Positions 5,345 to 21,548 of a DNA stretch of 42,883 nucleotides are shown here, piece by piece. The stretch lies in assembly GCA_048938855.1 (NCBI GenBank), contig JBHLLT010000024.1, positions 1 to 42,883 on the forward strand, written 5' to 3'. The position numbers and the translations under genes are program-made. This DNA comes from Promethearchaeota archaeon (GTDB lineage: Archaea > Asgardarchaeota > Lokiarchaeia > Sigyniarchaeales > SOKP01). The notes under the pieces are model-generated. The model was not told where the DNA came from, searched no databases, and saw nothing but the letters and a program-made list of their open reading frames with translations. Position 1 is the stretch's first letter; the number at the start of each line of letters is the position of its first letter.

Positions 5345-6463
5345 ATGGTAAATACTGATATTGATTTTGATGTTTGTATTATAGGGGCAGGTCCAGGAGG
5401 CTCAATTGCAGGTAAAGTAGCTGCTGAAAACGGCTATAGGACATGTATTATTGAAAAAGATGTAATTGGAGATATGGGGCGATACAAAGCCTGTGGTGGA
5501 GCTATAGCTTGGGAGTTGGTAGAAGAGATAAATTATCCTGAAGATAAAATAAGCCGTATTTTTGAATCATTAGAACTTCACCATGTTGATGGGGATAGGT
5601 TCTCAAAAAAAGGAAAAGGTGTGACGGTTTGGCGTAATATATTTGATAAATTTCTAACTGATATGGCAGTTGACAGTGGAGTAATTTTGAAAGAGAAGGA
5701 TCCTTTAATCAATCTTGAGAAGAAAGATAGTTTTTATATTATAAGTACTAAAAAAAAAAAATATACTGCAAAGTACATAATAGCTAGCGATGGAGCTACT
5801 TCCACTACTTTAAAATTATTGGGATGGCCATATTTCAAAAATGAAAATATAGTTCTAACGATTACAAAAGAGATGAGAACTACTAAAAATAATATAAATA
5901 GTAAATTGGGAAATGATGCAATTCATGCATTTTTTGGAGTAAATAATTTAATCCCAATTGGTTATGCATGGTTATTTCCAAAATTTGAAACAATTACAGC
6001 GGGATGGGGTAACCAAATAAGTCTTGTTAAAAATTCAAGGGAGGAATTTAAAAAATTTGAGAATCTTACTTTCGTGAAAAATGTTCTAAAAAACAGTCAT
6101 TTAACCATTTTCAAAGCGCATTTGATCCCTGTTGGTTTACGCCCTAAACTCTATAAAGACAACGTATTTGCGGTTGGTGATGCTGGTGGATTAGTGGACC
6201 CTATCAGTGGAAAAGGAATACCATATGCAATGATGAGCGGACAAATCGCAATTGAAACAATTAAATCTTGTGAGAAAAGAGATAAATTGGATAAAATGGG
6301 TACTTTTTATGAGAAAAACTTAGATAGGAAATTCCTCCTTGTTCTTAAAGCAAAAAGAATAGCTCGAGATCAGATATTCCAAAATGATGAGAATTTAAAA
6401 CGATTTCTATCACTTTGGGAAAAGTACCGCAGTTCTGAAATAGTCATGAAAAAATTACTTTAA
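5345..6463 (+). CDS. Geranylgeranyl reductase-family FAD oxidoreductase
   Basis: GAGPGG dinucleotide motif, KACGG, GYAWLFP, VGDAGGLVDPISGKGIPYAM; adjacent to GGPP synthase. Confidence 0.88.
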   Translation: MVNTDIDFDVCIIGAGPGGSIAGKVAAENGYRTCIIEKDVIGDMGRYKACGGAIAWELVEEINYPEDKISRIFESLELHHVDGDRFSKKGKGVTVWRNIFDKFLTDMAVDSGVILKEKDPLINLEKKDSFYIISTKKKKYTAKYIIASDGATSTTLKLLGWPYFKNENIVLTITKEMRTTKNNINSKLGNDAIHAFFGVNNLIPIGYAWLFPKFETITAGWGNQISLVKNSREEFKKFENLTFVKNVLKNSHLTIFKAHLIPVGLRPKLYKDNVFAVGDAGGLVDPISGKGIPYAMMSGQIAIETIKSCEKRDKLDKMGTFYEKNLDRKFLLVLKAKRIARDQIFQNDENLKRFLSLWEKYRSSEIVMKKLL

Positions 6464-6619
6464 AAATGCTAAAAATACCTTCAGCAACCTAATTTTAAGA
6501 TCTCAAATTTTTTCTAAATGTTAAGAGTATTGAAAATCTGAAATACCTTTTATTTCAGTAAATTATATGTAGTATACTGATTAAATTATACAATTATAAA
6601 TAAAGATTTATGATTATCA

Positions 6620-7687
6620 ATGAAGTTTATTGAGTATTCAAAGAAATATGTTCCTAAAATAAATAATGCAATTAAACTTCTCTATGAAAAGAAATTAAAC
6701 ACTGTACAAAATCAATTTTTAAAAGATTACTATTCAGAATTAAAGGATTACTTCCTATCAGGTGGAAAGAGAATCAGACCATTATTATGCATCGCTAGTT
6801 TTAATGCTTTTAATAAAGAAGACGAAAATGATATTGTTCAACCAAGTATTGGAGTAGAATTCCTTCATAATGCCTCATTGATTCATGATGATATTATCGA
6901 TAGAGATAATTTTCGCAGGGGGAACCCTTCTTTTCACTATAGGTTTCGAAATTATCATCAAAAATATAATTTGAAGAAAATGAACGATATTGATTTTGGT
7001 AATTCTATAGGAATCATAGGAGGGGATTCAGCATTTTTCTTAGGGATAGAAGCTTATCTTTTTAACAATTTTGATGTTGATCGAAATTTAAAAGCCATCA
7101 AATTATATGAACAAGGATTTATTGATATTGCAAATGGCGTATTAATTGAAACTGATATGGTAAACAGAAAAGATTTAACCATTTCCGATTATATTAAAAT
7201 GATTTCACTTAAAACGGGAGCTTTATTAGAAAAATCAATCTTAATTGGGGCAACCTATGCAAAAGTTAATGAGAACGTAATGAACGACCTTTCAGTTTAT
7301 GGTATAAATTTGGGGATTATTTTTCAAATAATCGATGATATATTAGGAACTTTTGGTGATGAAAAAGTTACTGGTAAGCCTACTGATGGAGATATTCGAG
7401 AGGGTAAAAAAACTTGTCTATTTATTGATGCATTCAATAATTTAGATGATAAGGATAAGGATAAACTTGAGAAATTAATAGAGAAATCAGACATGACAGA
7501 TTATGATGTCCAGAATGTTAAAGAGTTATTTTTAAATGCGAATGCTATTGATTCGTGCAAAGAATTAGCAGATTCATATTTTAAAGAAGCAAGTTCATCT
7601 TTAGAGAATTTAAAAACCGAGATAAATTCTTCAGAAGTAGAATTCTATGAAGATCTATTAAAATTTGTGAAAAATAGAAGTTTCTAA
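6620..7687 (+). CDS. idsA: Short-chain trans-prenyltransferase, probable geranylgeranyl diphosphate synthase
   Basis: GGKRIRP, FARM LIHDDIIDRDNFRRG, KTG, SARM FQIIDDILG, DIREGKKT. The residue five before the FARM is Ala rather than Phe, so product chain length is uncertain. Confidence 0.88.
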   Translation: MKFIEYSKKYVPKINNAIKLLYEKKLNTVQNQFLKDYYSELKDYFLSGGKRIRPLLCIASFNAFNKEDENDIVQPSIGVEFLHNASLIHDDIIDRDNFRRGNPSFHYRFRNYHQKYNLKKMNDIDFGNSIGIIGGDSAFFLGIEAYLFNNFDVDRNLKAIKLYEQGFIDIANGVLIETDMVNRKDLTISDYIKMISLKTGALLEKSILIGATYAKVNENVMNDLSVYGINLGIIFQIIDDILGTFGDEKVTGKPTDGDIREGKKTCLFIDAFNNLDDKDKDKLEKLIEKSDMTDYDVQNVKELFLNANAIDSCKELADSYFKEASSSLENLKTEINSSEVEFYEDLLKFVKNRSF

Positions 7688-7851
7688 CAACGGATATGTG
7701 TGTAAATTTTCCCATTTTTTATAGGTTCATGGCACTATTACACAATTTTATCTAAAAACGCAACTTTATATTAATCTTACTTTGCTAATAATATGGAAAA
7801 AAAATTGTATTTTTTAAATAATAAAGGCAAAATATAGGTGGTTAATAGGGG

Positions 7852-8238
7852 TTGGAGGTTCCCAAATACGACATTCTAATTATAGATGATAGTAAGTATA
7901 TAAAACTCTTATTGACAGAAATCATAGAATTAAAAGGTTTTACATGTAGAACTGTTGACAATATTTCTTTAGCGATGCGAGAATTAGAAAACTATCTACC
8001 TAAACTAATATTATTAGATGTGCATTTGCCAGATTCTAGTGGTTATGATTTTTGTAAAAAACTTAAATCATCTAAGAGGTTTAATAAAATTCTTATATAT
8101 TATTTTACAGGTGTTGCAGAGACAGAAGTTGCCATAAAAGCACTTGAAACAAAAGCCGATGGATATTTGATAAAACCTTTTGATTTATCTGAGTTTTATA
8201 ATATTATTGAACTTGTAAAACAAAATACTGTTGTTTAA
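7852..8238 (+). CDS. Stand-alone response regulator receiver (CheY-like)
   Basis: ILIIDDS, LILLDVHLPDSSG (phosphoacceptor Asp), FTG, ADGYLIKPF. Confidence 0.9.
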   Translation: MEVPKYDILIIDDSKYIKLLLTEIIELKGFTCRTVDNISLAMRELENYLPKLILLDVHLPDSSGYDFCKKLKSSKRFNKILIYYFTGVAETEVAIKALETKADGYLIKPFDLSEFYNIIELVKQNTVV

Positions 8239-8397
8239 TTTTGATTAAAAACTATTATGTAATGTTTAAAGCTTCAAAAATTTATATAAAAATTGAAAAC
8301 ATATTTATTTTAGAATTAAGGAAAAATAAAAAAAATCTATATATTTGTCTTGATTTATTAACTTTAATAATCAATTGAGACTTAGTGGAGATTCCAA

Positions 8398-8784
8398 TTG
8401 AAGATACTCCAAGATATTTGGATTCTGCAAAAATCTGGGTTAGTAATATTTCATAGAGAATTTGATAAAAGTGTTTCTCCTCAGCTTTTTGGAGCAATGA
8501 TGAGTGCTTTAAATATGTTTGCTGAACAATTAACTGAAGGAGGCTTATCAAATTTCGATTTAAAAGACACTAGATTCACTCTCATAAAAAAATTGAATCT
8601 AATATTTATTGCAACATCATCAAAGAAATATAATCAAAAAAAAGTAAATAAAGAATTAGAAAAAATATCAGCTAAATTCATAAAACTTTACCATGGTGAA
8701 ATAGAGAATTTTACAGGAAAATTAGGTGGCTTCTCTAATTTTATTGATGAAATTGGAGGATCATTAGAAGAAAAAGAATTATAA
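8398..8784 (+). CDS. Longin-like (sedlin/sigma-adaptin-like) small Asgard protein
   Basis: IWIL-x2-SG-x2-IF...L-x-G-x3-AL-x2-F...LIF...L-x2-I-x3-F pattern typical of Asgard longin-fold proteins; GGAG SD upstream of TTG. Confidence 0.65.
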   Translation: MKILQDIWILQKSGLVIFHREFDKSVSPQLFGAMMSALNMFAEQLTEGGLSNFDLKDTRFTLIKKLNLIFIATSSKKYNQKKVNKELEKISAKFIKLYHGEIENFTGKLGGFSNFIDEIGGSLEEKEL

Positions 8785-8791
8785 AAGTAAT

Positions 8792-10684
8792 TTATTGATT
8801 GATCCATTGGTATAATTCACCTAATAGTACCCTTTTCGCTGTATTCCCTATTAATTTATCAATTTTATCCACATTCATTAACCACATTGAAGATCTTAGT
8901 TCTTGTTTCAGAGTTTTTATCTCTTTAATACTATTCAAAAAAGTATTATTTTTATAATCATGCCAAGCTGTTCTTAAAAACTTGAAGGCAAAACCCCCAA
9001 TATTTGCTCCAATTGAGATTGCCTTAGCAATGTCCAACCCATTTCTTAAGCCTCCTGTTGCAATTATGAGTTTTTGAGTAGCTTTTCTAACATTAATTAT
9101 GCTGACAGGTGTAGGATTACCCCATTCCCTGAATGTATCCGCAATCTTTCGTGTATATGCTTCATAGCTAAAATTATCGCGTATTGACTCAATCGCAGCA
9201 AAACTAGTGCCTCCAGTTCCCCCAACATCAAATCCATCAAATCCTAATGAATCAAGTTTTAAAGCTAATTCCATATTAAATCCAGAACCAACTTCTTTTG
9301 CTATAATAGGAATTTTAATATTTTTTCTTATCTCTTTAAAGATTTCTTCAAAATTTTTATAAGAAAGATTACCATTGCTTTGAGTAAGTTCATGTAAAGC
9401 GTTTAAATGTATAGCCATGACATCAGCATTAATCATTTCGACGCATTTATTAAAATCATCCAAACTAAATTTAGGATCACATATTTGGCCAACTCCAATG
9501 TTTCCAATTATAGGAATATTAGGTGCCATAGCACGTACAACTTTAAAAGAATCAATTGTGGAAGGATCTTCCAAACCAATTCTTTGAGAACCAACACTCA
9601 TTATAATATTTTCTGTATTCGCAGCATTTGCTAAAATATTATTGATTATTTTAGAAATTTCATGACCTCCAGTAATTGCTGCAATACATATAGGCGCCGA
9701 AATTTCCTTTCCAAAAAATTTTAAAGAGAGATCAATATCCTCTAATTCAAACTCAGGGAGTGGATGATGAATTAGATTTATATCATCAAAGTAGTTCTTT
9801 GAATGTTGAACATTATACTTTAAAGGGATTTTTAAATGTTCTATTTTCCTATTGTATATTTTTCTCTCAGATTTTGAATTAAATGGTGTTTCTATTGTTG
9901 TACATTTTAAAGACTTATTAAGTATTGACTTCAGGATATTTTCATCTTTTAATCCATTAATAACTTGAACAGGGATATTAAATTTTATAATTTCCTCAAT
10001 AATCTCTAGTTTACTTTTTATTCCGCCTGTAACATCAATTTTTTGATCCAAATTCGCTAATTTTAGATCATCTAAGTCATGAGAACTTAAATTTAAAGCA
10101 AGTTTTACATTTCCATTATCCTTGATGAAGATACCATCTTTTTCAATAGCAAATACCACTTTTGAAATTTTAAAATTTCTTATATTTTTACATAATTTTA
10201 ATATTATCTGATCTCCTGAAAGTATTGAAAAAGATCTTTCTCGACTTAATATTATATCGCCATATAGGATTGGGATTATTCCAAGTCTTATCAAATGTTC
10301 AATAGATTCAATATTATTAACTAAGACTTGGTTATATTCCTTGATAAATAAACCTGAGGGTTGGATGGGAATCGCAGGTTTGTTATTCTCTAAAAACTTG
10401 TTAATTATGATTGAATTAAATTTATTCATAACCTCGTGTGTTTTAGAAAGCCCTAACAGTTGATCCTTAATAGATTCATTAAAACCTTGAGATATCTGAT
10501 ATTTTTTTGCAATAGGATGACCAAATGACCCACCTCCATGGATTAAAATAATATTTTTCTTGCTCCTAATAATCTGTTTAACCGAACTTTCTAATATTTC
10601 TTCCCTAAGGGAAAATGGTGTTTCTTTGTCAGTTAATAAACTTCCACCTAGTTTTAAAATAATAACTTCATTATTTTCTTTCAA
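8792..10684 (-). CDS. fni: Fusion: isopentenyl phosphate kinase (N-terminal ~265 aa) plus type 2 FMN-dependent IPP delta-isomerase
   Basis: IPK motifs KLGGSLLTDK, HGGGSFGHP, SGDQI, DVTGGI. IDI-2 motifs RKIEH, AITGG, GSQR, HLN, KEVG, GGTSFA, GGLR. One continuous 630-aa ORF. Confidence 0.92.
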   Translation of the reverse strand: MKENNEVIILKLGGSLLTDKETPFSLREEILESSVKQIIRSKKNIILIHGGGSFGHPIAKKYQISQGFNESIKDQLLGLSKTHEVMNKFNSIIINKFLENNKPAIPIQPSGLFIKEYNQVLVNNIESIEHLIRLGIIPILYGDIILSRERSFSILSGDQIILKLCKNIRNFKISKVVFAIEKDGIFIKDNGNVKLALNLSSHDLDDLKLANLDQKIDVTGGIKSKLEIIEEIIKFNIPVQVINGLKDENILKSILNKSLKCTTIETPFNSKSERKIYNRKIEHLKIPLKYNVQHSKNYFDDINLIHHPLPEFELEDIDLSLKFFGKEISAPICIAAITGGHEISKIINNILANAANTENIIMSVGSQRIGLEDPSTIDSFKVVRAMAPNIPIIGNIGVGQICDPKFSLDDFNKCVEMINADVMAIHLNALHELTQSNGNLSYKNFEEIFKEIRKNIKIPIIAKEVGSGFNMELALKLDSLGFDGFDVGGTGGTSFAAIESIRDNFSYEAYTRKIADTFREWGNPTPVSIINVRKATQKLIIATGGLRNGLDIAKAISIGANIGGFAFKFLRTAWHDYKNNTFLNSIKEIKTLKQELRSSMWLMNVDKIDKLIGNTAKRVLLGELYQWINQ

Positions 10685-11642
10685 TCACCACACCTTCTTT
10701 ATCAATACTTGCTATCAAGCTATTGAATCCTTTTTTATTTAAGATTTGGGAAATTTCTTCTAAACGGTCTTCATTCCCAATTGAAATTACACATCCTCCT
10801 AATCCTGCTCCAGTTAATTTTGACCCATAAGCTCCATTCTCATTAGCAATATGAATAATTTCATTAATTGAATCATTAGACAAACGTAAAGCTGCTAAAA
10901 GTTTTTGATTTATATTCATCAATTTACCAATTTCAACTAAATTTCCCTGAGAAATCTCCAATTCCGCTAATTCTGTATAGATTCGTATTTTATCGAAAAT
11001 ATAATCACAGAATGACGGTTCTTCATTTTTAAATCTCCTTAGTTGTTCAATGGCTAATTTAGTTTTGTGTTCCATATTTGTATATGTTACTAAAATCTTA
11101 AAGTCATGAGGTACTTCTAAATAACGGAATCTATTATCTTGAAAAAAGATCAGTTTACCAAAAGTACAAATTGTATTGTCAATACCTGAAGGCGTTCCAT
11201 GTATTATTTTTTCTAATTCAAATGCAATATCTGAAATTTCGCTTTTTTCTAATTCTAAATTAAAATAGGTATTAAATGCCATAATTAACGCAACTGCTAT
11301 GGATGCGGATGACCCTAAACCAGAACTTGGGAAAAGATCTGAAAAAATTGTAATTTTGAGTTTTTCTATTTGATCATTAGACCTTTGATGAATAATTTTA
11401 AATAAATACTTGATTTGTTTTAACTGATGAGGCATTTTTTCAAAGAGATCATCCAAATCCTTGAACTCATACCTCTTATCAAAATTCTTTAATATTAATT
11501 CTATTTTACCTTCACTTAATTCCTCAATTACACATGTAGATTTTATGGATATTGCAGCTGCTATTGCGGGATAGCCATAAACTACTGCGTGTTCACCAAA
11601 TAAGATGCATTTACCAGGTGCACTAGCACGAACAATTTTCAT
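10671..11642 (-). CDS. mvk: Mevalonate kinase
   Basis: APGKCILFGEHAVVYG, PSSGLGSSA, HGTPSGID, KLTGAGLGG. Confidence 0.95.
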   Translation of the reverse strand: MKIVRASAPGKCILFGEHAVVYGYPAIAAAISIKSTCVIEELSEGKIELILKNFDKRYEFKDLDDLFEKMPHQLKQIKYLFKIIHQRSNDQIEKLKITIFSDLFPSSGLGSSASIAVALIMAFNTYFNLELEKSEISDIAFELEKIIHGTPSGIDNTICTFGKLIFFQDNRFRYLEVPHDFKILVTYTNMEHKTKLAIEQLRRFKNEEPSFCDYIFDKIRIYTELAELEISQGNLVEIGKLMNINQKLLAALRLSNDSINEIIHIANENGAYGSKLTGAGLGGCVISIGNEDRLEEISQILNKKGFNSLIASIDKEGVVIERK

Positions 11643-11651
11643 AGGGTTAAA

Positions 11652-12926
11652 CTATTCACTTTTTGATAGTTTTTCTAATATTTCTTTAGCATAATCAATT
11701 CTAATTTTGTTCTCCCTTACAAGTATTCTAGCAACTTCTTCAATTAAATTATCAGGTGCTCCAGCTAACTTTGCAATATTACGTGAATGTAGAATCATAT
11801 GACCCTTTTGAATACCTTCAGACGCTAAAGCTCTTAAAGCAGCTACGTTTTGAGCTAGTCCTAAAGCAGCAGCTATTTGACAAAGTTCATCAACACCTTT
11901 AACATTTAAAATCTTTAAAGAAAGGCGAGCCATCGGATGTACTTTTGTCATCCCACCTATTATTCCTAATGCCATAGGCATTTCTATTTCACCTATAAGG
12001 TTTCCGTGAGAATCCTTCCGAAATGTTGTCAATGGAGAATATGTTCCCTTCATTGATGCATAAGCATGAGCTCCTGCTTCAATAGCCCGTGTATCATTTC
12101 CAGTTGCTAAAGCTAATGCAACGATACCATTCATTATACCTTTATTATGAGTAGTTGCTCTATATGGATCCGCTAAGGCAAATTCATAGGCATTTAAAAT
12201 TCCTTCTACTACTTCTTCACCACCTAACAGATCCTTGTCAAATACTGCCCTGCTTTTTGCAATTCGATGAGTTGCCAAATTTGAAACTATTCTAAGATAT
12301 ACCTTACCTCCAGATATATCTTCTATATAAGGGCTAATATTTTCAGCCATTGTATTTACGATATTAGCTCCCATGGCATCTAATACATCAACTAACAAAT
12401 GAATAATTATCATTTCTCCTTTTCTTGTTGTAATTTCTCGAATTTCAAAATCAAAGGCTCCTCCTCCTAACTTAATTAAAACGGGATCTTGTTCATTTGC
12501 AATTTTTAAAAGATTTTTTTTATTTGTCTCTAATTTGTTTTTAGCTACTTTTATGTCCTTTAAATTGGTTAACTGAATTTGAGAAATCATTATAGATTTT
12601 ACTTTATCAGAATGAAAACCTCCATGCTTTCTAGCTATTTTAGCAGCTTTAGAAGCAGCAGCAATTACTGATGGTTCTTCGGTCACCATCGGAATTATAT
12701 AATCTTTATTATTGATTTTAAAATAGTTGGCAATCCCTAAAGGTAATTGATAAGAACCAATAACATTTTCTATCAGAGTATCAATTTGTGTCTCAGTAAA
12801 GTACCCTAAATTTTCGAGGATTTTTTTCTCATTATCATCAAGATCAATAAGTTTAGATAATAATTTTCTACGTTCTTTAATTGATAATCTGTAGAATCCT
12901 GAAATATCAGAACTATACTCTTTCAT
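11652..12926 (-). CDS. mvaA: HMG-CoA reductase, class II
   Basis: ENVIG-x3-LPLGIA, EEPSVIAA, DAMGANIVN, THNKGIMNG, GNDTRAIEA, GIQKGHM. Confidence 0.95.
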   Translation of the reverse strand: MKEYSSDISGFYRLSIKERRKLLSKLIDLDDNEKKILENLGYFTETQIDTLIENVIGSYQLPLGIANYFKINNKDYIIPMVTEEPSVIAAASKAAKIARKHGGFHSDKVKSIMISQIQLTNLKDIKVAKNKLETNKKNLLKIANEQDPVLIKLGGGAFDFEIREITTRKGEMIIIHLLVDVLDAMGANIVNTMAENISPYIEDISGGKVYLRIVSNLATHRIAKSRAVFDKDLLGGEEVVEGILNAYEFALADPYRATTHNKGIMNGIVALALATGNDTRAIEAGAHAYASMKGTYSPLTTFRKDSHGNLIGEIEMPMALGIIGGMTKVHPMARLSLKILNVKGVDELCQIAAALGLAQNVAALRALASEGIQKGHMILHSRNIAKLAGAPDNLIEEVARILVRENKIRIDYAKEILEKLSKSE

Positions 12927-13053
12927 TTTTAAATGTTGATTTTGTAATTGAAAAGAATTAATTATTTTATTTTTTTAGAATTAATACAAAAAATAATTAT
13001 TATTCCTAATTAATTAATACTTATAAGAAATTTAATTTTACAACCAAATATCT

Positions 13054-13614
13054 GTGAGAATTTTGATTCTTATTGCGATAACTGGGGCCTCAGGAATAGC
13101 AATAGCAGAAAAATTATTAGAAGTATTAAAGAGCAAAGACATTAAAACTGAATTAATAATATCAAAGTCAGCTGAAGTTGTCATTTCAAGTGAAACTGAC
13201 AGAAAGATCAAAGAAATTCAGCAATTAGCAACAAAATCTTATGATGTGGATGATTTAACTGCTCCACCAGCTAGTGGTTCCTATAAAATTGAAGCTATGA
13301 TCATAGTTCCTTGTACAATGAAAACTTTAGCAGCTATAGCTAATGGTTATTCAGACAATTTAATCACTCGAGCTGCAGATGTTGCTATAAAAGAAAAGAG
13401 AAAACTTATTCTAATTGTAAGAGAAAGTCCTCTCAGTCCTATTCATTTGGAAAACATGCTAAAATTAGCAAATTTAGGAGTAGTAATTGCCCCCCCTGTC
13501 CCATCCTATTATATTAAGCCTAAATCCGTTGATGATCTTATTAATCATACTGTAGGAAGGATTCTCGATCAAATAGGAATTGAAAGTGATATAAAGAGGT
13601 GGGGAGATGAATAA
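13054..13614 (+). CDS. ubiX: Flavin prenyltransferase UbiX
   Basis: ITGASG, ASGS, PCTMKTLA, NLITRAADV, KE-x-R-x-L, RESP. Confidence 0.95.
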   Translation: MRILILIAITGASGIAIAEKLLEVLKSKDIKTELIISKSAEVVISSETDRKIKEIQQLATKSYDVDDLTAPPASGSYKIEAMIIVPCTMKTLAAIANGYSDNLITRAADVAIKEKRKLILIVRESPLSPIHLENMLKLANLGVVIAPPVPSYYIKPKSVDDLINHTVGRILDQIGIESDIKRWGDE

Positions 13615-13933
13615 ATGGAAAGTAATTGTTGATAGCTATGAAATGGGTGATGATATAGTGTTAATGTTAAGAGGTGGTGAGAAATTTCATATAGGTGCTG
13701 TTGCAATGGCAACTCCGTATAAAAATACTGCGAGTACAAGCATAATCAGCTCATATGGTCATAAGGAGGGTGATTTAGTTAAGCCATTAGCAGAAAAGGT
13801 AGCCAAAAGACTTAAAAAAACAGTTGTTTTAGTAGCAGGCTTACATATTGATAATGCAACTCAAGATGATATTCAAAAACTGGTTGAAAACTCAAATAAT
13901 GTTATTGATGACTTTTTAGAGGGATTTAATTGA
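13607..13933 (+). CDS. LpdD-like prFMN-binding/chaperone protein
   Basis: GG-x3-HIGAVA, GHKE, AGLHIDNAT signature; lies between and overlaps ubiX and ubiD. Confidence 0.75.
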   Translation: MNKWKVIVDSYEMGDDIVLMLRGGEKFHIGAVAMATPYKNTASTSIISSYGHKEGDLVKPLAEKVAKRLKKTVVLVAGLHIDNATQDDIQKLVENSNNVIDDFLEGFN

Positions 13934-15186
13934 GAGATTATTTAAAAAAAATCAATATAAAAGAAAATGAAGATGTAATTTCTTTAGATGTGTTAAGCCA
14001 TCAAATTTATAAAGACCAAGAAGCACCAACAAAATATAGTGTGAAAAATTACTCATTTCCAATAGTTTCAGGATTAGTAAGTAATAGAAAACTATTTGCT
14101 ACAGCCCTAGGAATTAATCAGAACCAAATTATTCAATTTATTACTGAAAAATTAGATACTTTAAAAAAGCCTAAGGAAATCGATAAGGCTAAGTTTTTAA
14201 ATAATAAAATCGATGTAACGAGCGATACTGATTTAGAGAAATATATTCCAATGATAAATTTTTATGGAGATAAGAAGTACATTACATCTAGTATTGTAAT
14301 TGTTAAATTTCCAGATGAAGACAGACAAAACTTGTCTTTTCATCGATTAATGCATCTTGATTCAAATCAATTTTCAATAAGAATTGTACCTCAAAGACAT
14401 TTAGATAAAGCTTATCTTAATGCAATAGAAAATAATAAAGATTTAGAGTTAGCAATTGTTTGTGGTGTACATCCTGCTATAGAAATAAGTTCTTCATTTT
14501 CATCGCCGCAATTAGATGAACTCTCTTTAGCAGCTACAATGTTAAATGATCTTAGTGTATTTAGGCTTTCAAATGATCTTCTTGTACCTTCTGATGCTGA
14601 GTTTGTATTTGAAGGTAAAATTACAAGAGAAATGGCAGATGAAGGGCCTTTTGTTGATTTAACTGGAACTGCTGACAAAATAAGATCTCAGCCAATTCTC
14701 GAAATAGAAAAACTCTATTTTAAGGATAATCCAATCTTCAGAACTATTTTACCCGGTGGAAAGGAACATAAGATGCTAATGGGCGTACCACAAGAACCAC
14801 GTATGTTTAAATTCATATCTAATACCGTTAGTACGGTGAAAAATGTTATTTTAACACCAGGAGGGAATTCTTGGTTTCATGCTGTGGTGCAAATCAAAAA
14901 AAGAACTGAAGGAGATGCTAAAAATACGATTCTGGCAGCTCTAGCAGCTCATCCCAGTTTAAAAAGGGTTATTGTTGTTGATGAAGATATAAATATTTAT
15001 AAGTCTGACGATGTTGAATGGGCTGTAGCAACACGAGTCCAGCCAGATAGAGATATTTTACTTATTCCAAATTCAAAAGGATCATCATTAGATCCCTCAT
15101 CAAAAGATAGTATAACATGTAAATGGGGGATCGACGCTACCAAGCCCTTGGAAAACAATGAAGGTTATAATAGGGTGAAATTTTAG
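13930..15186 (+). CDS. ubiD: UbiD-family prFMN decarboxylase, probable anhydromevalonate phosphate decarboxylase
   Basis: SFHRL, EGPFVDLTG, VIVVDEDI, VEWAVATR, GIDATKP. Specific function inferred from coupling with AcnX and MVA genes. Confidence 0.9.
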   Translation: MRDYLKKINIKENEDVISLDVLSHQIYKDQEAPTKYSVKNYSFPIVSGLVSNRKLFATALGINQNQIIQFITEKLDTLKKPKEIDKAKFLNNKIDVTSDTDLEKYIPMINFYGDKKYITSSIVIVKFPDEDRQNLSFHRLMHLDSNQFSIRIVPQRHLDKAYLNAIENNKDLELAIVCGVHPAIEISSSFSSPQLDELSLAATMLNDLSVFRLSNDLLVPSDAEFVFEGKITREMADEGPFVDLTGTADKIRSQPILEIEKLYFKDNPIFRTILPGGKEHKMLMGVPQEPRMFKFISNTVSTVKNVILTPGGNSWFHAVVQIKKRTEGDAKNTILAALAAHPSLKRVIVVDEDINIYKSDDVEWAVATRVQPDRDILLIPNSKGSSLDPSSKDSITCKWGIDATKPLENNEGYNRVKF

Positions 15187-16328
15187 TGTATTTGACTAAA
15201 AAGGAAGAAAAAATCCTGGATGGAGAATCTGGAGAGATAAAAGCAAAAGCTATGAGAATTCTTGTAACTCTAGGTGATATATTTAATGCAGATAAATTAA
15301 TAAAAATTGATTCAACTCAAATTGCAGGAGTATCTTATAAAACTATTGGGGATGCAGGATTGGACTTTTTAGAGGATTGGGCCAAAGAAAATGTTCAAGT
15401 CGTTGTTGAAAGTTGGATGAATCCTGCTGGTATGGATTTAGATGAGTGGAATAAATTGGGATTTCCAGCTGATTTTGCTAAAAAACAAGTAAGGATAATT
15501 AAAGCTTTAACATCAATGGGGATCAAACAAAGCTGCACTTGTACTCCATATCATAACGGGCTTATACCAAATATGGGATCTCATATAGCATGGTCAGAAT
15601 CTTCAGCCGTGATTTTTGCTAATTCTGTTCTAGGAGCAATGACTAATCGGGAAGGAGGACCTAGCGCTCTATCAGCTGCATTGATAGGGAAAACACCAAA
15701 TTATGGTTTACATTTAGATGAAAATAGAGTAGGACAAATACAGTTCAACATAAATATAGAGTTAACTAATTTTGATTTCACTCTTTTGGGATATCATATC
15801 GGAGAACTTTCAAATAATAAAATTCCTGTGATAACTGGAGTCAATGAAGCTTCTTGGGCTCAGTTAAAAGCATTGGGTGCAGGAGCTGCTGCCAGTGGAG
15901 GAGTAGCAATGTTTATTATTCCAAATATCACCCAGGAATCAAGGATAATTGATAATCCTGAAGTATTTGAAGTATCAAGAGAAGATTTAATTAAAATACA
16001 GGAAAAACTAACTATTGGTAGTGAACCTGAAATAATAGCATTCGGATGTCCACATTGTTCATTAGAAGAAATAAATGAAATAATCCAAAATATAAAAACA
16101 GAAAAAAAAGTATGGATTTTCACATCAAAACAGATTAAAAATAAATTCCAGAATCTACCTCATAATATTAGTATCTTCGCAGATACATGTATGGTTGTTG
16201 CACCTTTAGAAGAAATGGGAATAGGCTGTTTAGCCACTGATTCTAGTAAGGCAGCTCATTATACACAAAACTTATCGAAAATTAAAAGTATATTGAAATC
16301 TCGCGAGGATCTTTTAAGTGGAAATTAA
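15186..16328 (+). CDS. Aconitase X large subunit, probable phosphomevalonate dehydratase large subunit
   Basis: GVSYK, CTCTPY, WSESSA, GCPH, DTCMVV (three Fe-S Cys ligands); MVA context. Confidence 0.9.
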   Translation: MYLTKKEEKILDGESGEIKAKAMRILVTLGDIFNADKLIKIDSTQIAGVSYKTIGDAGLDFLEDWAKENVQVVVESWMNPAGMDLDEWNKLGFPADFAKKQVRIIKALTSMGIKQSCTCTPYHNGLIPNMGSHIAWSESSAVIFANSVLGAMTNREGGPSALSAALIGKTPNYGLHLDENRVGQIQFNINIELTNFDFTLLGYHIGELSNNKIPVITGVNEASWAQLKALGAGAAASGGVAMFIIPNITQESRIIDNPEVFEVSREDLIKIQEKLTIGSEPEIIAFGCPHCSLEEINEIIQNIKTEKKVWIFTSKQIKNKFQNLPHNISIFADTCMVVAPLEEMGIGCLATDSSKAAHYTQNLSKIKSILKSREDLLSGN

Positions 16329-16704
16329 AGGAAATTGTATTGTACCAGGAGAAGCTACTGGAGAAACTTTAGTTAGTTATGAACCGATTTCTTTTTTAGG
16401 TGATATTGACCCTAAAACTGGTCAAATAACAGCAACAAGACACCCATTAAAAGGTATTTCTGTAAAGGGTAAAATTTTAGTATTCCCTTTCGGAAAAGGG
16501 TCAACTGTTGGATCCTATGTAATTTATCAGCTATTTAAGAATAGATCCGCCCCTATTGCATTTTTAACACAAAAAGCTGATCCTATTGTTGCTGTTGGAG
16601 CAATAATTTCTGGGATCCCAATGATGGATGATATTGATATAAATAAAATTCCTAATGGTATAAAATTAAGTATAAATGCTAATTTAGGTTTAATATATTT
16701 TTAA
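16318..16704 (+). CDS. Aconitase X swivel-domain subunit (DUF126), phosphomevalonate dehydratase small subunit
   Basis: ISFLGDIDPKTG, HPLKG, GKGSTVGSY with catalytic Ser; overlaps the large subunit by 11 nt. Confidence 0.92.
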   Translation: MEIKGNCIVPGEATGETLVSYEPISFLGDIDPKTGQITATRHPLKGISVKGKILVFPFGKGSTVGSYVIYQLFKNRSAPIAFLTQKADPIVAVGAIISGIPMMDDIDINKIPNGIKLSINANLGLIYF

Positions 16705-16724
16705 ACTTTTAAACTAGGGGTTTA

Positions 16725-18404
16725 TCATTCAAGATGAGGTATAGTAGCATCTTGAATTTGACATTCTCTTTTAACTAAATATTTCTCAGGAATAGGCATG
16801 TATATAGGACTCCAATTTAGTAATCCTTTTGCATTTATATTTTCCTCATTTTCATTTTCAACTCTTCTGATTTCATATTCTAATGCATTCCCTTTTTTTG
16901 CATTACTTGCTACTCTAACAAAACCATTTTTTAGATATTTAAGATCATTATGATTAGATTGAACTATAGGATCACTCTCTAATTTTGCAAAAAGAGGAAA
17001 GAACCGTTTATGATATCCTGAATGCCCTTTAGGACAGTGATCTAAACCTTTTATATTTGGAATTAGACACCCCTCATCACAAAAATGCAATGTGAAGCCT
17101 CTTTTATTATTTTGTTCATGCTCAATAATATGACCTAGAAAAATCTCAGGTTTTACTGTACCATTCTTAACAGATTCATATTCTTGAACACTTTTACGTT
17201 GTTTCAAATCTATAAAATCATTTATATGAGGCCCATTTTTGATAACTGCTTGAAAACCTTCCTGAACTTTTAAAAGCCCTGAAATACAGGTAGCTCCTGA
17301 ACCATAGGATCCAAAATAGATTGTATCATTTTCTCGAGCTTGATTTTCTAACAAATAACATACCTGTGACCATAAACTGGCGTTATACATATTACCAAAA
17401 TGCATTGGAACGCTTAATTGAGGAAGTACCCTTTCTTTTACGTTTGTATTTACCCAATAGGAAAATCTCTCTAATGTTGGGGAAGAAAACCCCCTTTCTT
17501 TGAGTTTTAAATAAAGGTATTCTGGTAATACTGTTACATCATGTAAAAAATGATCAAGTTTCGCAAGTATAGATGATCTAATTGTATTTCTTTCAAATTT
17601 GGGAAGTTCATTTATATGCTTAACCCAACGTTTTAGAATTATCTGCTGCATACATTTTAGAGGTAATTTGGAATAAGGGGCGTGAAATGTGTAAAAATCC
17701 GCATGAAAATCCCCAATATTTCGAATTAAATCATCATATGCCCCCAGTTGAAACTTGAGATATGCTTCTTGGGAATAATGTCCAAAAGCACTTGCATTTT
17801 TTTCATTAGGTGGTCGAAAGAAATCATTAACATTTCCAGAAACCTTACCAAATTTTTTGCTAAATTTCGCTATTCTAGGATTTTTCGAAATAACAAGACC
17901 CATAGCGCCTGATCCTTGTGTTGGCTCACCAGGGGAACCAATATGATATGAGGAAATATCAGCACTTATGATGAGGGCTTTTTCAATAATACCGTTTTCA
18001 ATTAAGCCAATGGCATTAAGAATTGCTAAAGTGCCTCCAGCACATGCATTATAAATATCTTGAGTAATCGAATTAGGAGAAATTCCTAACATTTCAGCAA
18101 AAATATTGGATATTGATTTGACACTATATGTAATAGTTTCATTTCCGAAAAATAAAGCATCAATACTTTTTGGAGAGATGCCAGCTCTTTGTAATGTATT
18201 ATATCCTGCTTTTAAACCTAAAGATACAACATCTTCATCAACTTCAGGTATTCGCATTTCTTTGGACAAAAGACCCTTTATATATTTATCAGGATCTATA
18301 TTCCGTTCTTTCGCTAGTTCACGTAAATCAACATAAAATCTAGGTGAGAAAAATGAAAGCGAATCAATTCCAATATCTGAAAATAGATAATCGTTAGAAA
18401 GCAT
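16725..18404 (-). CDS. mvaS: HMG-CoA synthase with internal insertion and C-terminal DUF35-like extension
   Basis: Catalytic E (GNET), C (NACAGG), H (FHAPY); GEPTQGSGA, DFFRP, GNMYNAS, SYGSG. At 559 aa it is much longer than typical ~350-aa archaeal HMGS. Confidence 0.88.
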   Translation of the reverse strand: MLSNDYLFSDIGIDSLSFFSPRFYVDLRELAKERNIDPDKYIKGLLSKEMRIPEVDEDVVSLGLKAGYNTLQRAGISPKSIDALFFGNETITYSVKSISNIFAEMLGISPNSITQDIYNACAGGTLAILNAIGLIENGIIEKALIISADISSYHIGSPGEPTQGSGAMGLVISKNPRIAKFSKKFGKVSGNVNDFFRPPNEKNASAFGHYSQEAYLKFQLGAYDDLIRNIGDFHADFYTFHAPYSKLPLKCMQQIILKRWVKHINELPKFERNTIRSSILAKLDHFLHDVTVLPEYLYLKLKERGFSSPTLERFSYWVNTNVKERVLPQLSVPMHFGNMYNASLWSQVCYLLENQARENDTIYFGSYGSGATCISGLLKVQEGFQAVIKNGPHINDFIDLKQRKSVQEYESVKNGTVKPEIFLGHIIEHEQNNKRGFTLHFCDEGCLIPNIKGLDHCPKGHSGYHKRFFPLFAKLESDPIVQSNHNDLKYLKNGFVRVASNAKKGNALEYEIRRVENENEENINAKGLLNWSPIYMPIPEKYLVKRECQIQDATIPHLE

Positions 18405-18807
18405 TACCCGTGTCTCTTAAAGTGTTAAATTTCCTTTTTTCCAATGAAAAATAAATAATTTAAAGTAATATTTATTTATTCAAAAACTTATCTAAATAAA
18501 TATTAAATTTATTAGAAGAAGCACTTATTTAAAAATTCTCAGTAGTCTCATATTATCAATAGTTCAAATTCTTATAAGTGGTATATATTATGAAAAATAC
18601 CATTCTTTTTTAACAACAATAAGAACGCGAAAATCGTAAATTAATTTTCCATATAGGTTAATATTAACAGAGTTTTCATATTAATTAGTCAAACTCCATT
18701 AGCTCAGCTTTAAATAATAAAAAAATAACAAAAAAGAATTTTAGATAAAATTAATATTTTTAATATTTATATTAATATTGAAAATTACATATTATTTTTC
18801 TGAAGAG

Positions 18808-19575
18808 ATGGAAACTACTTTAGAAGACTTAAGAAAAAACCATAGTGATAAGTTACCCAAGCACATTGGACTCATCGTTGATGGAATTTAGAAGAGATCT
18901 CCACTTCTAAACAAAAACAGACGATGGGCAGCAAAAAGAAATCTTGATGTTAATTTTGGGCATTTAGTTGGGTATGAAAACCTGAAAAAAAGGTTATTTG
19001 ATTTTTTTGATGCAGGGATCCATTATTTAAGTCTGTACATTCTATCTCTTGAAAATGTTAAAAAACGAAGTGCTGAAGAGCTTAAATATATCTATAAAAT
19101 TATGATAAAAGCTGTTGACACAGTTATTAACGAGTCGATTGTAAAAGAGGAAAAAGTAAGGTTTAGTGTTATTGGCAGAATTTCAATGCTACCACCGAAA
19201 GCAAAAGCAAAAATTCAAGAGTTAATAAATTTTACAAAAGCTCACGATCAAAATTTTATAAATCTCTGCATTATGTATGATGGCCATGAGGAAATTGTTG
19301 ATGCTGTAAAATCTATCATCAAGGATTCTGTAAATGTAGAAGATATAGATGTTGAATTAATTAAGAAATATTTATACACCAAAAATTTCCCGCCCCTAGA
19401 TTATATAATTAGAACTGGGATGGATGATGGTGCAAGAATTTCAGGATTTCTATTGTGGGATTCTTCTTATGCTGAATTTAAATTTCGGGAAGATCTATGG
19501 CCTGATTATAATAAAGAAATGGTAATTGAAGATCTTGAAGATTATATAAGAAGAAATCGAAGGATGGGAAAATAA
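18808..19575 (+). CDS. uppS: cis-prenyltransferase (UppS family) interrupted by a 30-nt insertion; 245 aa if the insert is removed
   Basis: ATG 18808 is in frame with the 19102 ORF: METTLEDLRKNHSDKLPKHIGLIVDG-[I*KRSPLLNK]-NRRWAAKR...GH...SLENVKKRSAEE...YDGHEEI...DYIIRTG...RISGFLLW...RRMGK. The only internal stop is TAG 18889-18891, inside the insert. Confidence 0.9.
18886..18916 (+). other. Candidate 30-nt archaeal-type (relaxed BHB/BHL) mRNA intron in uppS
   Basis: Removing 30 nt (18885-18914, 18886-18915 or 18887-18916 are equivalent) restores GAT GGA AAC AGA CGA (DGNRR). Perfect 8-bp hairpin TTTAGAAG (18887-94) / CTTCTAAA (18904-11). Flanking CTCATCGTT (18871-79) pairs with GACGATGGG (18920-28). 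Confidence 0.6.
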
Positions 19576-19694: not shown

Positions 19695-21548
19695 ATGTCA
19701 AATGTAGACAGAACCATCTCTTTGAATATTTCCAAATTTCCGCAAAATTTGTTAATTTCAGGTATTGAGAATGAAGTTAAAATACATGCAGTAAACACTT
19801 CAAGCAAAAAAGAGACATACAAATTCGATTTTGAAGGGGAGAATTTAAAAATAAAAGTGGAACCAGAAGTTTTCAATAATCATCTAGAATTTAATCCAGG
19901 AGAAACCAAAGAAATAACCTTAAAATTAGAACCTACTATTGATGGTTTTGGAAAATTAATTATTAATATAAATTGGCTTAAGATTACTGAATACACAGTT
20001 AAGGTACAAAAAGTTAGGAATGTTGCTCCTACCAGCAAAATGAAATCAATCCTAAAATCTCACGTATTCACTATTACTGAAAAACTTGAGATGTTTGATT
20101 CAGAAGAATATTTTATACATATGGACCAAAATGCGATTACTAAAGCAGAACAACAGTTAGAAAGTTTAAAAAGTGAATTCAATTCAGCACAATCTATGGG
20201 ATCGCCAACTTCTCAACTACTGGAAAAAATAGACGCCTATATTATTCAAATAGCGAAAGGTTACCTTTCAATTAATAATCCCCTAAAAGCTTTAGAATAT
20301 GCATTAATGCTTTCAAAAAGTAATGAACAACTTGACTTATATACAAATTTAATTCGAGCATATGCTTCTAAGGATTTTGATCAGATGATTCAATTAACTC
20401 AAAATATGCAAGATTTAACTTTAAAAAATAAAATTATAAAATCGTTAGCTCTTGATCGTGTTAAAATTAATCCTGAACAAGCAATTAACACAACAACTTT
20501 AATTCCAGAGCCTTCTGCTAAAGAAGAATTCATGAGTAATATATTCAGCAAAGTCATTGAGACTGATGCTAAATTAGCCTTGAAATTCATAAACCAAATT
20601 GATAATGATTTTCAAAAAGTTAGGGTTTTGTTTAATATAGCAAAAGAATTATATGGTCAAAATGCTCAATCAGATGTTATTAATGTTTTTAATCTAATCG
20701 TTCAAATAGGGCTCATTTCTTACAATAAAAATCAAGATAATAGAAAATTAAGAAAATTATCTTATGAAAATATAAAGAATGCAATTAATGCTCTTGCTGA
20801 ATATGACAGTCCTAACACTGCTCATGCTATTGTTGAAAATATTTCAATTCAAGAACTTAAAGAAAAACTAACAAAAGATCTATTTGATATTATTTATGAG
20901 ATGGTTGATGAAGTACAGACTAAGGTAGAAGCTACTCCCGTATTTTCTCAATATTTCTTATTGAATACTTTTGTATCTCAAGTTAATAGGGAGATTACAA
21001 ATTTTAGCCTAAAAGGTGGAAATCTTAGTAATAATATTCTTGTGGATGATTTCAATTTTAATATAGCATTTCTCTCCTTATTTAGTTTTGATTTTAGTAT
21101 TTTTCCGATATTGGATCGAGTATATAATGATATAAAATATTCATTAAACAAATCAATTGCATATTTCGTTTTTCCATCAAAAGAAAATTATAACCAAAAT
21201 GAGTTAAACACTCTTAAAACTTCATTAAAACAATTTTTCAAGAATCTAAGCAATGCTCCAGGACAAGTATTAATATTTAATTTAGATTTTATTCCCTATT
21301 TAGGAAAACCGACGATAATAATATCTTCAGAAAATGCTTTAGGTGAACCTTTTTATTCAAAGATTAAAAAGATTGGAGAAAAGATAGAACTAATTGAAGA
21401 TAATTCTCTATTTAAAGGTGGTAAAATCTCTCATGAGCTCGCAGAGATATTTCCATCAAATAAAGCTAAAATCATCAATTTAGTCCTATCATATGAATTT
21501 TTCAATGATTATGACATTTTTAAAACTTTTATCCAATCTTTACTTTGA
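19695..21548 (+). CDS. Hypothetical protein: N-terminal Ig-like beta domain, alpha-solenoid, C-terminal alpha/beta domain
   Basis: 617-aa ORF; N...FNPGETKEITLKLEP-x2-DG is an Ig/CARDB-like pattern, followed by short helical-pair repeats (e.g. NPLKALEYA, NPEQAINTT, DAKLALKFI). Confidence 0.6.
   Translation: MSNVDRTISLNISKFPQNLLISGIENEVKIHAVNTSSKKETYKFDFEGENLKIKVEPEVFNNHLEFNPGETKEITLKLEPTIDGFGKLIININWLKITEYTVKVQKVRNVAPTSKMKSILKSHVFTITEKLEMFDSEEYFIHMDQNAITKAEQQLESLKSEFNSAQSMGSPTSQLLEKIDAYIIQIAKGYLSINNPLKALEYALMLSKSNEQLDLYTNLIRAYASKDFDQMIQLTQNMQDLTLKNKIIKSLALDRVKINPEQAINTTTLIPEPSAKEEFMSNIFSKVIETDAKLALKFINQIDNDFQKVRVLFNIAKELYGQNAQSDVINVFNLIVQIGLISYNKNQDNRKLRKLSYENIKNAINALAEYDSPNTAHAIVENISIQELKEKLTKDLFDIIYEMVDEVQTKVEATPVFSQYFLLNTFVSQVNREITNFSLKGGNLSNNILVDDFNFNIAFLSLFSFDFSIFPILDRVYNDIKYSLNKSIAYFVFPSKENYNQNELNTLKTSLKQFFKNLSNAPGQVLIFNLDFIPYLGKPTIIISSENALGEPFYSKIKKIGEKIELIEDNSLFKGGKISHELAEIFPSNKAKIINLVLSYEFFNDYDIFKTFIQSLL

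What the first reader, a model, noticed from the sequence alone, without database searches (positions are those of the whole stretch)
18808..18930. 30-nt hairpin splitting the DGNRR active-site motif of uppS: candidate endonuclease-spliced mRNA intron in an Asgard-type archaeon
Seen: the ORF track calls only a 157-aa fragment, but the frame from ATG 18808 reads PKHIGLIVDG-[att TAG aag aga tct cca ctt cta aac aaa]-NRRWA. Deleting exactly 30 nt restores the invariant cis-prenyltransferase D-G-N-x-R loop. The insert is a perfect 8-bp stem (TTTAGAAG/CTTCTAAA) with a 9-nt loop, and the flanks pair with each other (CUCAUCGUU/GACGAUGGG, with G-U pairs). Cuts after 18886 and 18916 fit bulge-helix-bulge spacing (inner pair U18888-A18910, outer pair G18880-C18918, two 3-nt bulges), but only 2 of the 4 central positions pair, so the motif is relaxed. 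All other UppS motifs, including the C-terminal RxG, are intact, which argues against decay. Established: archaeal tRNA-splicing endonuclease plus RtcB remove BHB introns, and mRNA cases are rare (crenarchaeal cbf5 is the classic one). Inference: a spliced intron in a lipid-carrier synthesis gene, possibly gating its expression. I do not know of this being described for Asgard uppS.
Basis: partly seen in the sequence, partly recalled or inferred. Interest (0 to 1): 0.92.

Follow-up and report, generated by a model that had tools for sequence, protein, structure and literature searches.

The report
tRNA-type mini-intron splits Asgard uppS
The only gene for a lipid-carrier enzyme (UppS) in this Lokiarchaeia-type Asgard archaeon is broken inside its active-site loop by a 30-base hairpin that very probably is cut out of the messenger RNA by the tRNA-splicing enzymes, a process the papers I could search confirm inside a coding sequence for only one archaeal gene (cbf5).

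Summary
Observation confirmed. A 30-nt insert (18887-18916, in-frame TAG) splits DG|NRR of the genome's only uppS; removing it gives an intact 245-aa enzyme. It is neither artefact nor decay: 24 copies in 23 genomes of the family, plus 4 more metagenome contigs, carry a 30-nt insert at the same site. Most are sole copies, with dN/dS (0.07-0.21) like insert-free relatives. The insert evolves as RNA, not protein: no codon periodicity, stops vary or are absent, and compensatory changes hold the inner stem, an exon-intron central pair and the exon-exon closing pair (24/24 Watson-Crick versus 7/46 without insert). The motif is not a canonical BHB: 2 of 4 central pairs here, with purine-purine mismatches. 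The genome has a two-subunit EndA with the Aeropyrum broad-specificity loop, RtcB, and similar inserts in rpl11 (one frameshifting) and RNase HII. Best reading: an EndA/RtcB-spliced mRNA intron (about 0.88). No RNA data were available, so splicing is inferred. 'Gating' is unsupported, as most relatives lack the insert. The scan found this same uppS intron before in other genomes; I found no paper describing it.

The parts
18808..18886 (+). uppS exon 1 (26 codons plus the first A of the Asn codon); holds the HIGLIVDG strand and the catalytic Asp
   Evidence: exon-1 reading conserved in insert-bearing relatives
18887..18916 (+). 30-nt intron candidate, with in-frame TAG at 18889-18891
   Evidence: register
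18917..19575 (+). uppS exon 2, from NRRW to the C-terminal RxG and the stop
   Evidence: (PF01255, E 2.5e-54)
18871..18880 (+). 5' strand of the exon-exon helix; G18880-C18918 and U18879-A18919 close the motif
18918..18928 (+). 3' strand of the exon-exon helix
18881..18884 (+). exon strand of the central 4-position helix (AUGG); only the two middle positions pair here
18911..18914 (+). intron strand of the central helix (ACAA)
18885..18887 (+). 5' three-nt bulge, predicted cut after A18886
   Evidence: middle A invariant in 28/28
18915..18917 (+). 3' three-nt bulge, predicted cut after A18916
   Evidence: middle A invariant in 28/28
18888..18910 (+). intron hairpin: 7-bp stem 18888-18894/18904-18910, extra pair G18896-C18902, 5-nt loop
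   Evidence: 97% of cells paired
5345..18404 (.). context: mevalonate/isoprenoid cluster (GGR-like, polyprenyl synthase, IPK-IDI2-like fusion, MVK, HMGR, UbiD, AcnX, HMGS) upstream of uppS; HMGS is divergent from it

Best explanation
A 30-nt archaeal (EndA-type) intron in uppS pre-mRNA. SHOWN: the insert interrupts the D-G-N-R-R loop of the only uppS, carries a stop, and its removal restores a 245-aa cis-prenyltransferase under normal purifying selection. A relaxed bulge-helix-bulge geometry (exon helix, four central positions, two 3-nt bulges with a middle A, 7-bp intron stem) is kept by compensatory change in 28 homologues. The genome encodes a catalytic and a structural EndA subunit and RtcB. 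INFERRED: the transcript folds into this motif, with purine-purine mismatches (A.A/A.G and G.A) standing in for the outer central pairs. A two-subunit EndA with the broad-specificity loop cuts after A18886 and A18916, RtcB joins the exons and rebuilds the Asn codon, and the 30-nt piece is released, possibly as a circle. The intron behaves as a near-neutral passenger that is tolerated because it is spliced, and is gained, lost or exchanged between lineages as a short patch with its flanks.
For: Same 30-nt insert at the same site in 24 copies from 23 genomes and 4 further metagenome contigs. All 23 pattern hits among 185,579 species are in records that match this family's contigs, mostly titled Promethearchaeota/Promethearchaeia. 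It is the only uppS match in 21 of these genomes, including the single-contig chromosome CP070831.1. dN/dS is 0.065-0.21 between insert-bearing sisters versus 0.05-0.18 without. BHB core: 88.7% of cells paired, 5 pairs with double changes, covariation 0.322 versus at most 0.132 for slid controls. The exon Asp codon third base covaries with its intron partner (UA 12, CG 13, UG 1). The exon-exon pair next to the closing pair is Watson-Crick in 24/24 with insert versus 7/46 without, and the closing G-C is 23/24 versus 10/46. The insert has no codon periodicity (entropy 0.59/0.73/0.58 versus 0.42/0.14/1.12 in exons), while paired columns vary half as much as unpaired. Stops are TAG, TAA, TGA, double or none, and there is no PylS. 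The EndA catalytic subunit best matches Aeropyrum pernix EndA, with the loop lysine aligned to Lys44 (PMC3241643). Second EndA-like subunit and RtcB present. The sole rpl11 of this genome has a 37-nt frameshifting insert with a 4/4 central helix.
Against: No spliced transcript or circle was seen (one search listed no RNA run; searches gave no spliced copy). The central helix has only 2 of 4 standard pairs here and in 12 of 28 copies, 3 in 15 and 4 in 1, below even the 'relaxed' class of bioRxiv 10.64898/2026.10.13.758758. All 28 inserts are 30 nt, a multiple of three, so this site alone does not force splicing by frameshift. The two double-change pairs at the junction mostly separate two sequence types, so they may be one or two events, and kin are not independent. 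Two inserts lack a stop (G036/P0092, P0233).
Confidence: 0.88

Rival explanations
1. The insert is removed from the RNA, but by another enzyme or with other cut sites than the EndA BHB register (for example one bulge plus an internal loop, or an unknown nuclease-ligase).
For: The central helix is weak, and the MFE fold shows an open 7x8 internal loop rather than a BHB. Three registers restore the frame.
Against: Only the cut after 18886 gives inner 4.86/5, outer 2.0/2 and central 2.6/4 pairing. The two middle central pairs hold in 26/26 with covariation. EndA with the broad-specificity loop is present.
Confidence: 0.05
2. Translational recoding: stop readthrough giving a 10-residue insertion, or ribosomal bypass of the hairpin, with no RNA cut.
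For: Length is always 30 nt; a stop plus hairpin follows the last exon codon; two relatives have a stop-free insert.
Against: Stops differ in identity and number, with up to two per insert. No PylS. No codon-type constraint in the insert. Ten residues between Gly and Asn would break the pyrophosphate-binding loop (established knowledge of UppS). No matched landing codon for the Ile codon before the stop. Bypass does not predict exon-exon and exon-intron covariation. The 37-nt rpl11 insert cannot be read through.
Confidence: 0.04
3. Pseudogene, or exon 2 translated alone as a truncated protein.
For: Databases hold these genes as N-terminally truncated proteins. One copy (G065, contig end) has a stop in exon 1 beside an intact insert-free uppS.
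Against: Sole uppS. dN/dS equal to intact genes. No stops or frameshifts outside the insert in the aligned span of 24 copies. Exon 1 is conserved and holds the catalytic Asp.
Confidence: 0.02
4. Assembly or sequencing artefact.
Against: Diverged but homologous inserts at the same base in independent assemblies from different studies.
Confidence: 0.005

Closest known systems
cbf5 (pseudouridine synthase) pre-mRNA intron of Desulfurococcales and Sulfolobales (Watanabe 2002 as cited; Yokobori 2009, PMC2738675)
   Same: Small intron inside a catalytic motif of a coding sequence, cut between first and second base of a codon, unconventional BHB, hetero-oligomeric EndA, present in some relatives and lost in others.
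   Different: Other gene (uppS) and other phylum (Promethearchaeota). Splicing is shown for cbf5 but only inferred here. Distribution is patchy within genera rather than at order level. The host carries several such inserts (rpl11, RNase HII).
Non-canonical tRNA introns of Asgard archaea (PMC11291895; bioRxiv 10.64898/2026.10.13.758758)
   Same: Similar size, BHB-type borders, repeated gains, two-subunit EndA.
   Different: Those are in tRNA genes; the passages I searched in the two papers mention no mRNA introns. This one has only 2 of 4 central pairs.
BHB intron in the 5' UTR of Haloferax HVO_1309 (PMC7714728)
   Same: EndA-cut intron in an mRNA, released as a circle.
   Different: Lies in the UTR and does not interrupt the reading frame; 46 nt; euryarchaeal host.
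IRE1/RtcB splicing of XBP1 (and HAC1) mRNA in eukaryotes (own knowledge)
   Same: Short non-spliceosomal mRNA intron, protein endonuclease plus tRNA ligase.
   Different: Other nuclease and RNA motif (two stem-loops); a regulated switch, which is not shown here.

Membership tests
Canonical BHB intron (hBHBh') | Four-base-pair central helix | tested here: not met
   2/4 in this genome; 2/4 in 12, 3/4 in 15, 4/4 in 1 of 28 copies; mismatches are always purine-purine
Canonical BHB intron (hBHBh') | Two 3-nt bulges with cuts after the second base that remove exactly the insert | tested here: met
   cuts after 18886 and 18916 restore DGN in 28/28; middle A invariant in both bulges
Canonical BHB intron (hBHBh') | Flanking intron helix and exon helix | tested here: met
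   intron stem 97% paired, two closing exon pairs 100% paired, with double changes
EndA-spliced mRNA intron with relaxed motif (cbf5 type) | Interrupts a coding sequence whose joined exons give a complete protein under selection | tested here: met
EndA-spliced mRNA intron with relaxed motif (cbf5 type) | Host has hetero-oligomeric EndA with catalytic Tyr/His/Lys and the broad-specificity loop, plus RtcB | tested here: met
   two EndA-domain genes, one lacking the His; Lys44-equivalent in the loop (PMC3241643); RtcB. Subunit assembly itself not tested
EndA-spliced mRNA intron with relaxed motif (cbf5 type) | Spliced mRNA or excised circle observed | not testable with these tools
   no RNA run listed; no spliced copy recognised
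EndA-spliced mRNA intron with relaxed motif (cbf5 type) | Cleavage by EndA in vitro | not testable with these tools
   bench experiment
Pyrrolysine/stop readthrough | One conserved stop and its decoding machinery | tested here: not met
   stops vary and are often double; no PylS over cut-off
Mobile miniature repeat (MITE-like) | Related copies elsewhere in the genome | tested here: not met
   blastn and profile scan find no second copy; next hits score 21 versus 38.6 and those examined show no intron geometry
cis-prenyltransferase (UppS, PF01255) | Pfam domain, DGNxR loop, C-terminal RxG | tested here: met
   (DGNxR only after removal of the insert)

The most novel reading that the evidence does not exclude
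Lokiarchaeia routinely splice messenger RNAs of core single-copy genes (uppS, rpl11, RNase HII) with the tRNA endonuclease, using a degenerate motif in which purine-purine pairs replace half the central helix, and these mini-introns move between genera as short patches with their flanking exon bases. That would be a spliceosome-free, multi-gene mRNA intron system in close prokaryotic relatives of eukaryotes, which also truncates their database annotations.
Probability: 0.7. Interest if true: 0.85.

Novelty: new variant of a known kind. Interest (0 to 1): 0.72.

Why it matters
In the papers I could search, splicing inside an archaeal coding sequence is confirmed only for cbf5 (PMC2738675, PMC7714728). 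A conserved intron in the active-site loop of a sole uppS means these Asgard cells would depend on mRNA splicing to make their polyprenyl lipid carrier. It extends EndA substrates to a motif with only two standard central pairs. It bears on whether interrupted protein genes predate the spliceosome. It also shows a systematic annotation error: about 45 database proteins of one clade are all N-terminally truncated. It gives a direct in vitro test with recombinant EndA.

Tried and rejected
The look-up of sequencing runs: no RNA holder listed, so no reads could be laid; this is no evidence either way. Hunting a spliced copy in protein and contig collections found no full-length protein identical to a spliced insert-bearing gene. 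The one gap-free metagenome hit, L105, is an insert-free relative of G004 (86% identity), not a spliced form. The blastn indel census missed the positive control and was discarded. The protein-diagonal census over about 557 gene pairs recovered uppS as the only clean stop-bearing polymorphic insert; it cannot see introns shared by both genomes. First pair count used a mis-registered outer helix and was replaced. Rfam: nothing at gathering level. Promoter and terminator scan: no excess over shuffles. Profile scan for related inserts elsewhere in the genome: none convincing. No second insert found in the mevalonate-cluster genes of this window, though few homologues were available and the cluster genes align at only 30-45%. 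Regulation ('gating') considered and left unsupported. Literature searches found no report of Asgard mRNA BHB introns; the library lacks most subscription papers.

Full report
Observation. The window reads ATG at 18808, then HIGLIVDG, ten extra codons with TAG at 18889-18891, then NRRWA and an open frame to 19575. The ORF list shows only the 157-aa tail. Removing 30 nt yields a 245-aa protein. Its insert-free orthologue (93% identical over exon 2) aligns end to end with solved undecaprenyl diphosphate synthases. The organism is a Lokiarchaeia-type Asgard archaeon: homologues and pattern hits are mostly labelled Promethearchaeota or Lokiarchaeota.

Copy number and machinery. tblastn and PF01255 find one uppS in the 3.95-Mb, 97% complete genome. 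Two EndA-domain genes exist. The C93 gene has the Tyr, His and Lys motifs and best matches Aeropyrum pernix EndA, including the loop whose Lys44 gives broad specificity (PMC3241643). The C34 gene lacks the His, as a structural subunit would. RtcB is present. PylS is not.

Relatives. Of 135 family genomes, 118 had a match. I extracted 70 loci: 24 copies from 23 genomes have an insert, always 30 nt and always at the same base, and 46 have clean DGNRR. The second batch was chosen to include all stop-bearing copies, so 24/70 overstates the frequency; it is 10 of 48 matched genomes in the own genus and 12 of 39 in a second genus. Four more distinct copies came from metagenomes. In 21 genomes the interrupted copy is the only match, including a single-contig chromosome; one genome has two interrupted copies; one has an intact copy plus a contig-end interrupted copy with an extra stop. 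dN/dS between insert-bearing sisters is 0.065-0.21 against 0.05-0.18 for insert-free pairs. This rules out artefact and decay.

The insert evolves as RNA. On 26 distinct sequences the BHB core pairs in 88.7% of cells, five pairs show double changes, and covariation is 0.322 against at most 0.132 for slid controls. The third base of the Asp codon covaries with its intron partner. The two exon-exon pairs that close the motif are Watson-Crick in 23/24 and 24/24 insert-bearing genes but in 10/46 and 7/46 insert-free genes. These are synonymous positions, so the exons carry the imprint of the structure. Caveat: the junction changes largely separate two sequence types and may reflect few events. Inside the insert, variation follows pairing (entropy 0.43 paired, 0.93 unpaired) and not codon position, while the flanking exons show the usual third-position excess. 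Stops are TAG, TAA, TGA, two at once or none. Readthrough is therefore unlikely.

Register and motif quality. Three excision registers restore DGN in all 28 copies; only the cut after 18886/18916 also gives inner, outer and central pairing, and both bulges have an invariant middle A. The central helix is the weak point: 2 of 4 pairs here and in 12 of 28, 3 in 15, 4 in 1. The mismatches are always purine-purine (A.A, A.G, G.A). By the rule of bioRxiv 10.64898/2026.10.13.758758 this copy fails even the relaxed class, so I do not file it as a canonical BHB. By my manual reading, a tRNA-Gly intron of this genome (C92) has the same G.A at the position next to the 5' bulge, and a tRNA-Ser intron has 3 of 4 pairs, so the host enzyme appears to tolerate imperfect central helices. 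The cbf5 introns are also mostly unconventional (PMC2738675).

Not a lone case. Following leads from earlier scan notes, I checked two other genes of this genome. The only rpl11 has a 37-nt, frameshifting insert with a 4/4 central helix and a second 36-nt insert; removing both restores the conserved GGSASGGPPIGP stretch. The L11 N-domain match is split or shortened in about half of the genus. RNase HII has a 30-nt stop-bearing insert with 3/4 central pairs. A frameshifting insert in a single-copy ribosomal protein gene cannot be read through, which supports splicing for the class. A motif-free comparison of about 557 gene pairs found uppS as the only clean polymorphic stop-bearing insert, so such introns are uncommon per gene; shared ones are invisible to that test.

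History. On a uppS tree built without the junction region, the insert needs at least 6 changes, or 16 losses after a single gain. G010 (insert) is sister to G020 (none) with full support, yet its junction flanks are closer to the other genus (0.86) than to insert-bearing congeners (0.74), while its gene body shows the reverse (0.73 versus 0.80). I infer exchange of a short patch, intron plus a few exon bases, by recombination; convergent selection for pairing is the alternative, and the insert itself is equidistant (0.71 versus 0.72). No related copy exists elsewhere in the genome. This pattern fits a tolerated passenger better than a conserved regulator.

Mechanism. Shown: interruption, restoration, selection, conserved geometry, presence of enzymes. 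Inferred: folding in vivo, cutting by EndA after A18886 and A18916, joining by RtcB, release of a 30-nt RNA. Not seen: any spliced RNA (one search listed no run; searches gave no spliced copy). I put about 0.88 on EndA splicing, 0.05 on removal by another route, 0.04 on recoding and 0.02 on a pseudogene.

Novelty. In the papers searched, the one confirmed coding-sequence case is cbf5, with other cases only predicted (PMC2738675), plus a 5' UTR intron in Haloferax (PMC7714728). The Asgard papers I searched cover tRNA introns only. Within this scan the same uppS intron was reported before from other genomes, and many similar introns in other Lokiarchaeia genes; some notes claim spliced RNA for other genes, which I could not check and do not use as support. 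Verdict: real, very probably spliced, a new variant of a known kind, interest 0.72.

Noticed in passing
L146 (G000 C49, about 57456-57420 on the minus strand, and about 21 nt further on): The only rpl11 is split by a 37-nt frameshifting insert (4/4 central BHB) and a 36-nt insert (3/4) around a short middle exon; the L11 N-domain match is split or shortened in about half of the genus.
   Followed up: partly
L147 (G000 C81, about 88140-88170): RNase HII catalytic motif split by a 30-nt stop-bearing insert with a 3/4 central helix.
   Followed up: partly
G000 C92:2955-3068: tRNA-Gly that appears to carry two introns, one at a non-canonical position with a G.A mismatch in the central helix. Aragorn finds only 24 tRNAs in the genome, which suggests many are heavily interrupted.
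   Followed up: partly
window 5345-19575: Near-complete archaeal mevalonate/isoprenoid cluster (GGR-like, polyprenyl synthase, IPK-IDI2-like fusion, MVK, HMGR, UbiD, AcnX, HMGS) next to uppS; mvk here has an intact GEH motif.
   Followed up: partly
L003:1453-2046 (G000 C93): The Asgard EndA catalytic subunit carries the 'Crenarchaea-specific loop' with a lysine aligned to Lys44 of Aeropyrum pernix.
   Followed up: partly
L044 and L053 (G065): One genome holds its own insert-free uppS and, at a contig end, an insert-bearing copy of another genus's type with a stop in exon 1: contamination or a decaying transferred copy.
   Followed up: partly
L030 (G036), P0092, P0233: Two inserts have lost the stop and are annotated as 255-258-aa proteins with ten extra residues in the active-site loop.
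   Followed up: partly
L051 (G137) and L052 (G080): uppS aligns in two pieces further downstream (an apparent in-frame insertion of about 170 nt in G137; a gap in G080).
   Followed up: no
G000 C34, about 7690: A ThiF/E1-like frame (GVGGLG motif) has an in-frame TGA just upstream of its conserved start region with no ATG between; may be two abutting genes or a broken one.
   Followed up: no
window 19695-21548 and 21661-23331: Two large genes downstream of uppS, syntenic in several relatives, have no Pfam match.
   Followed up: no
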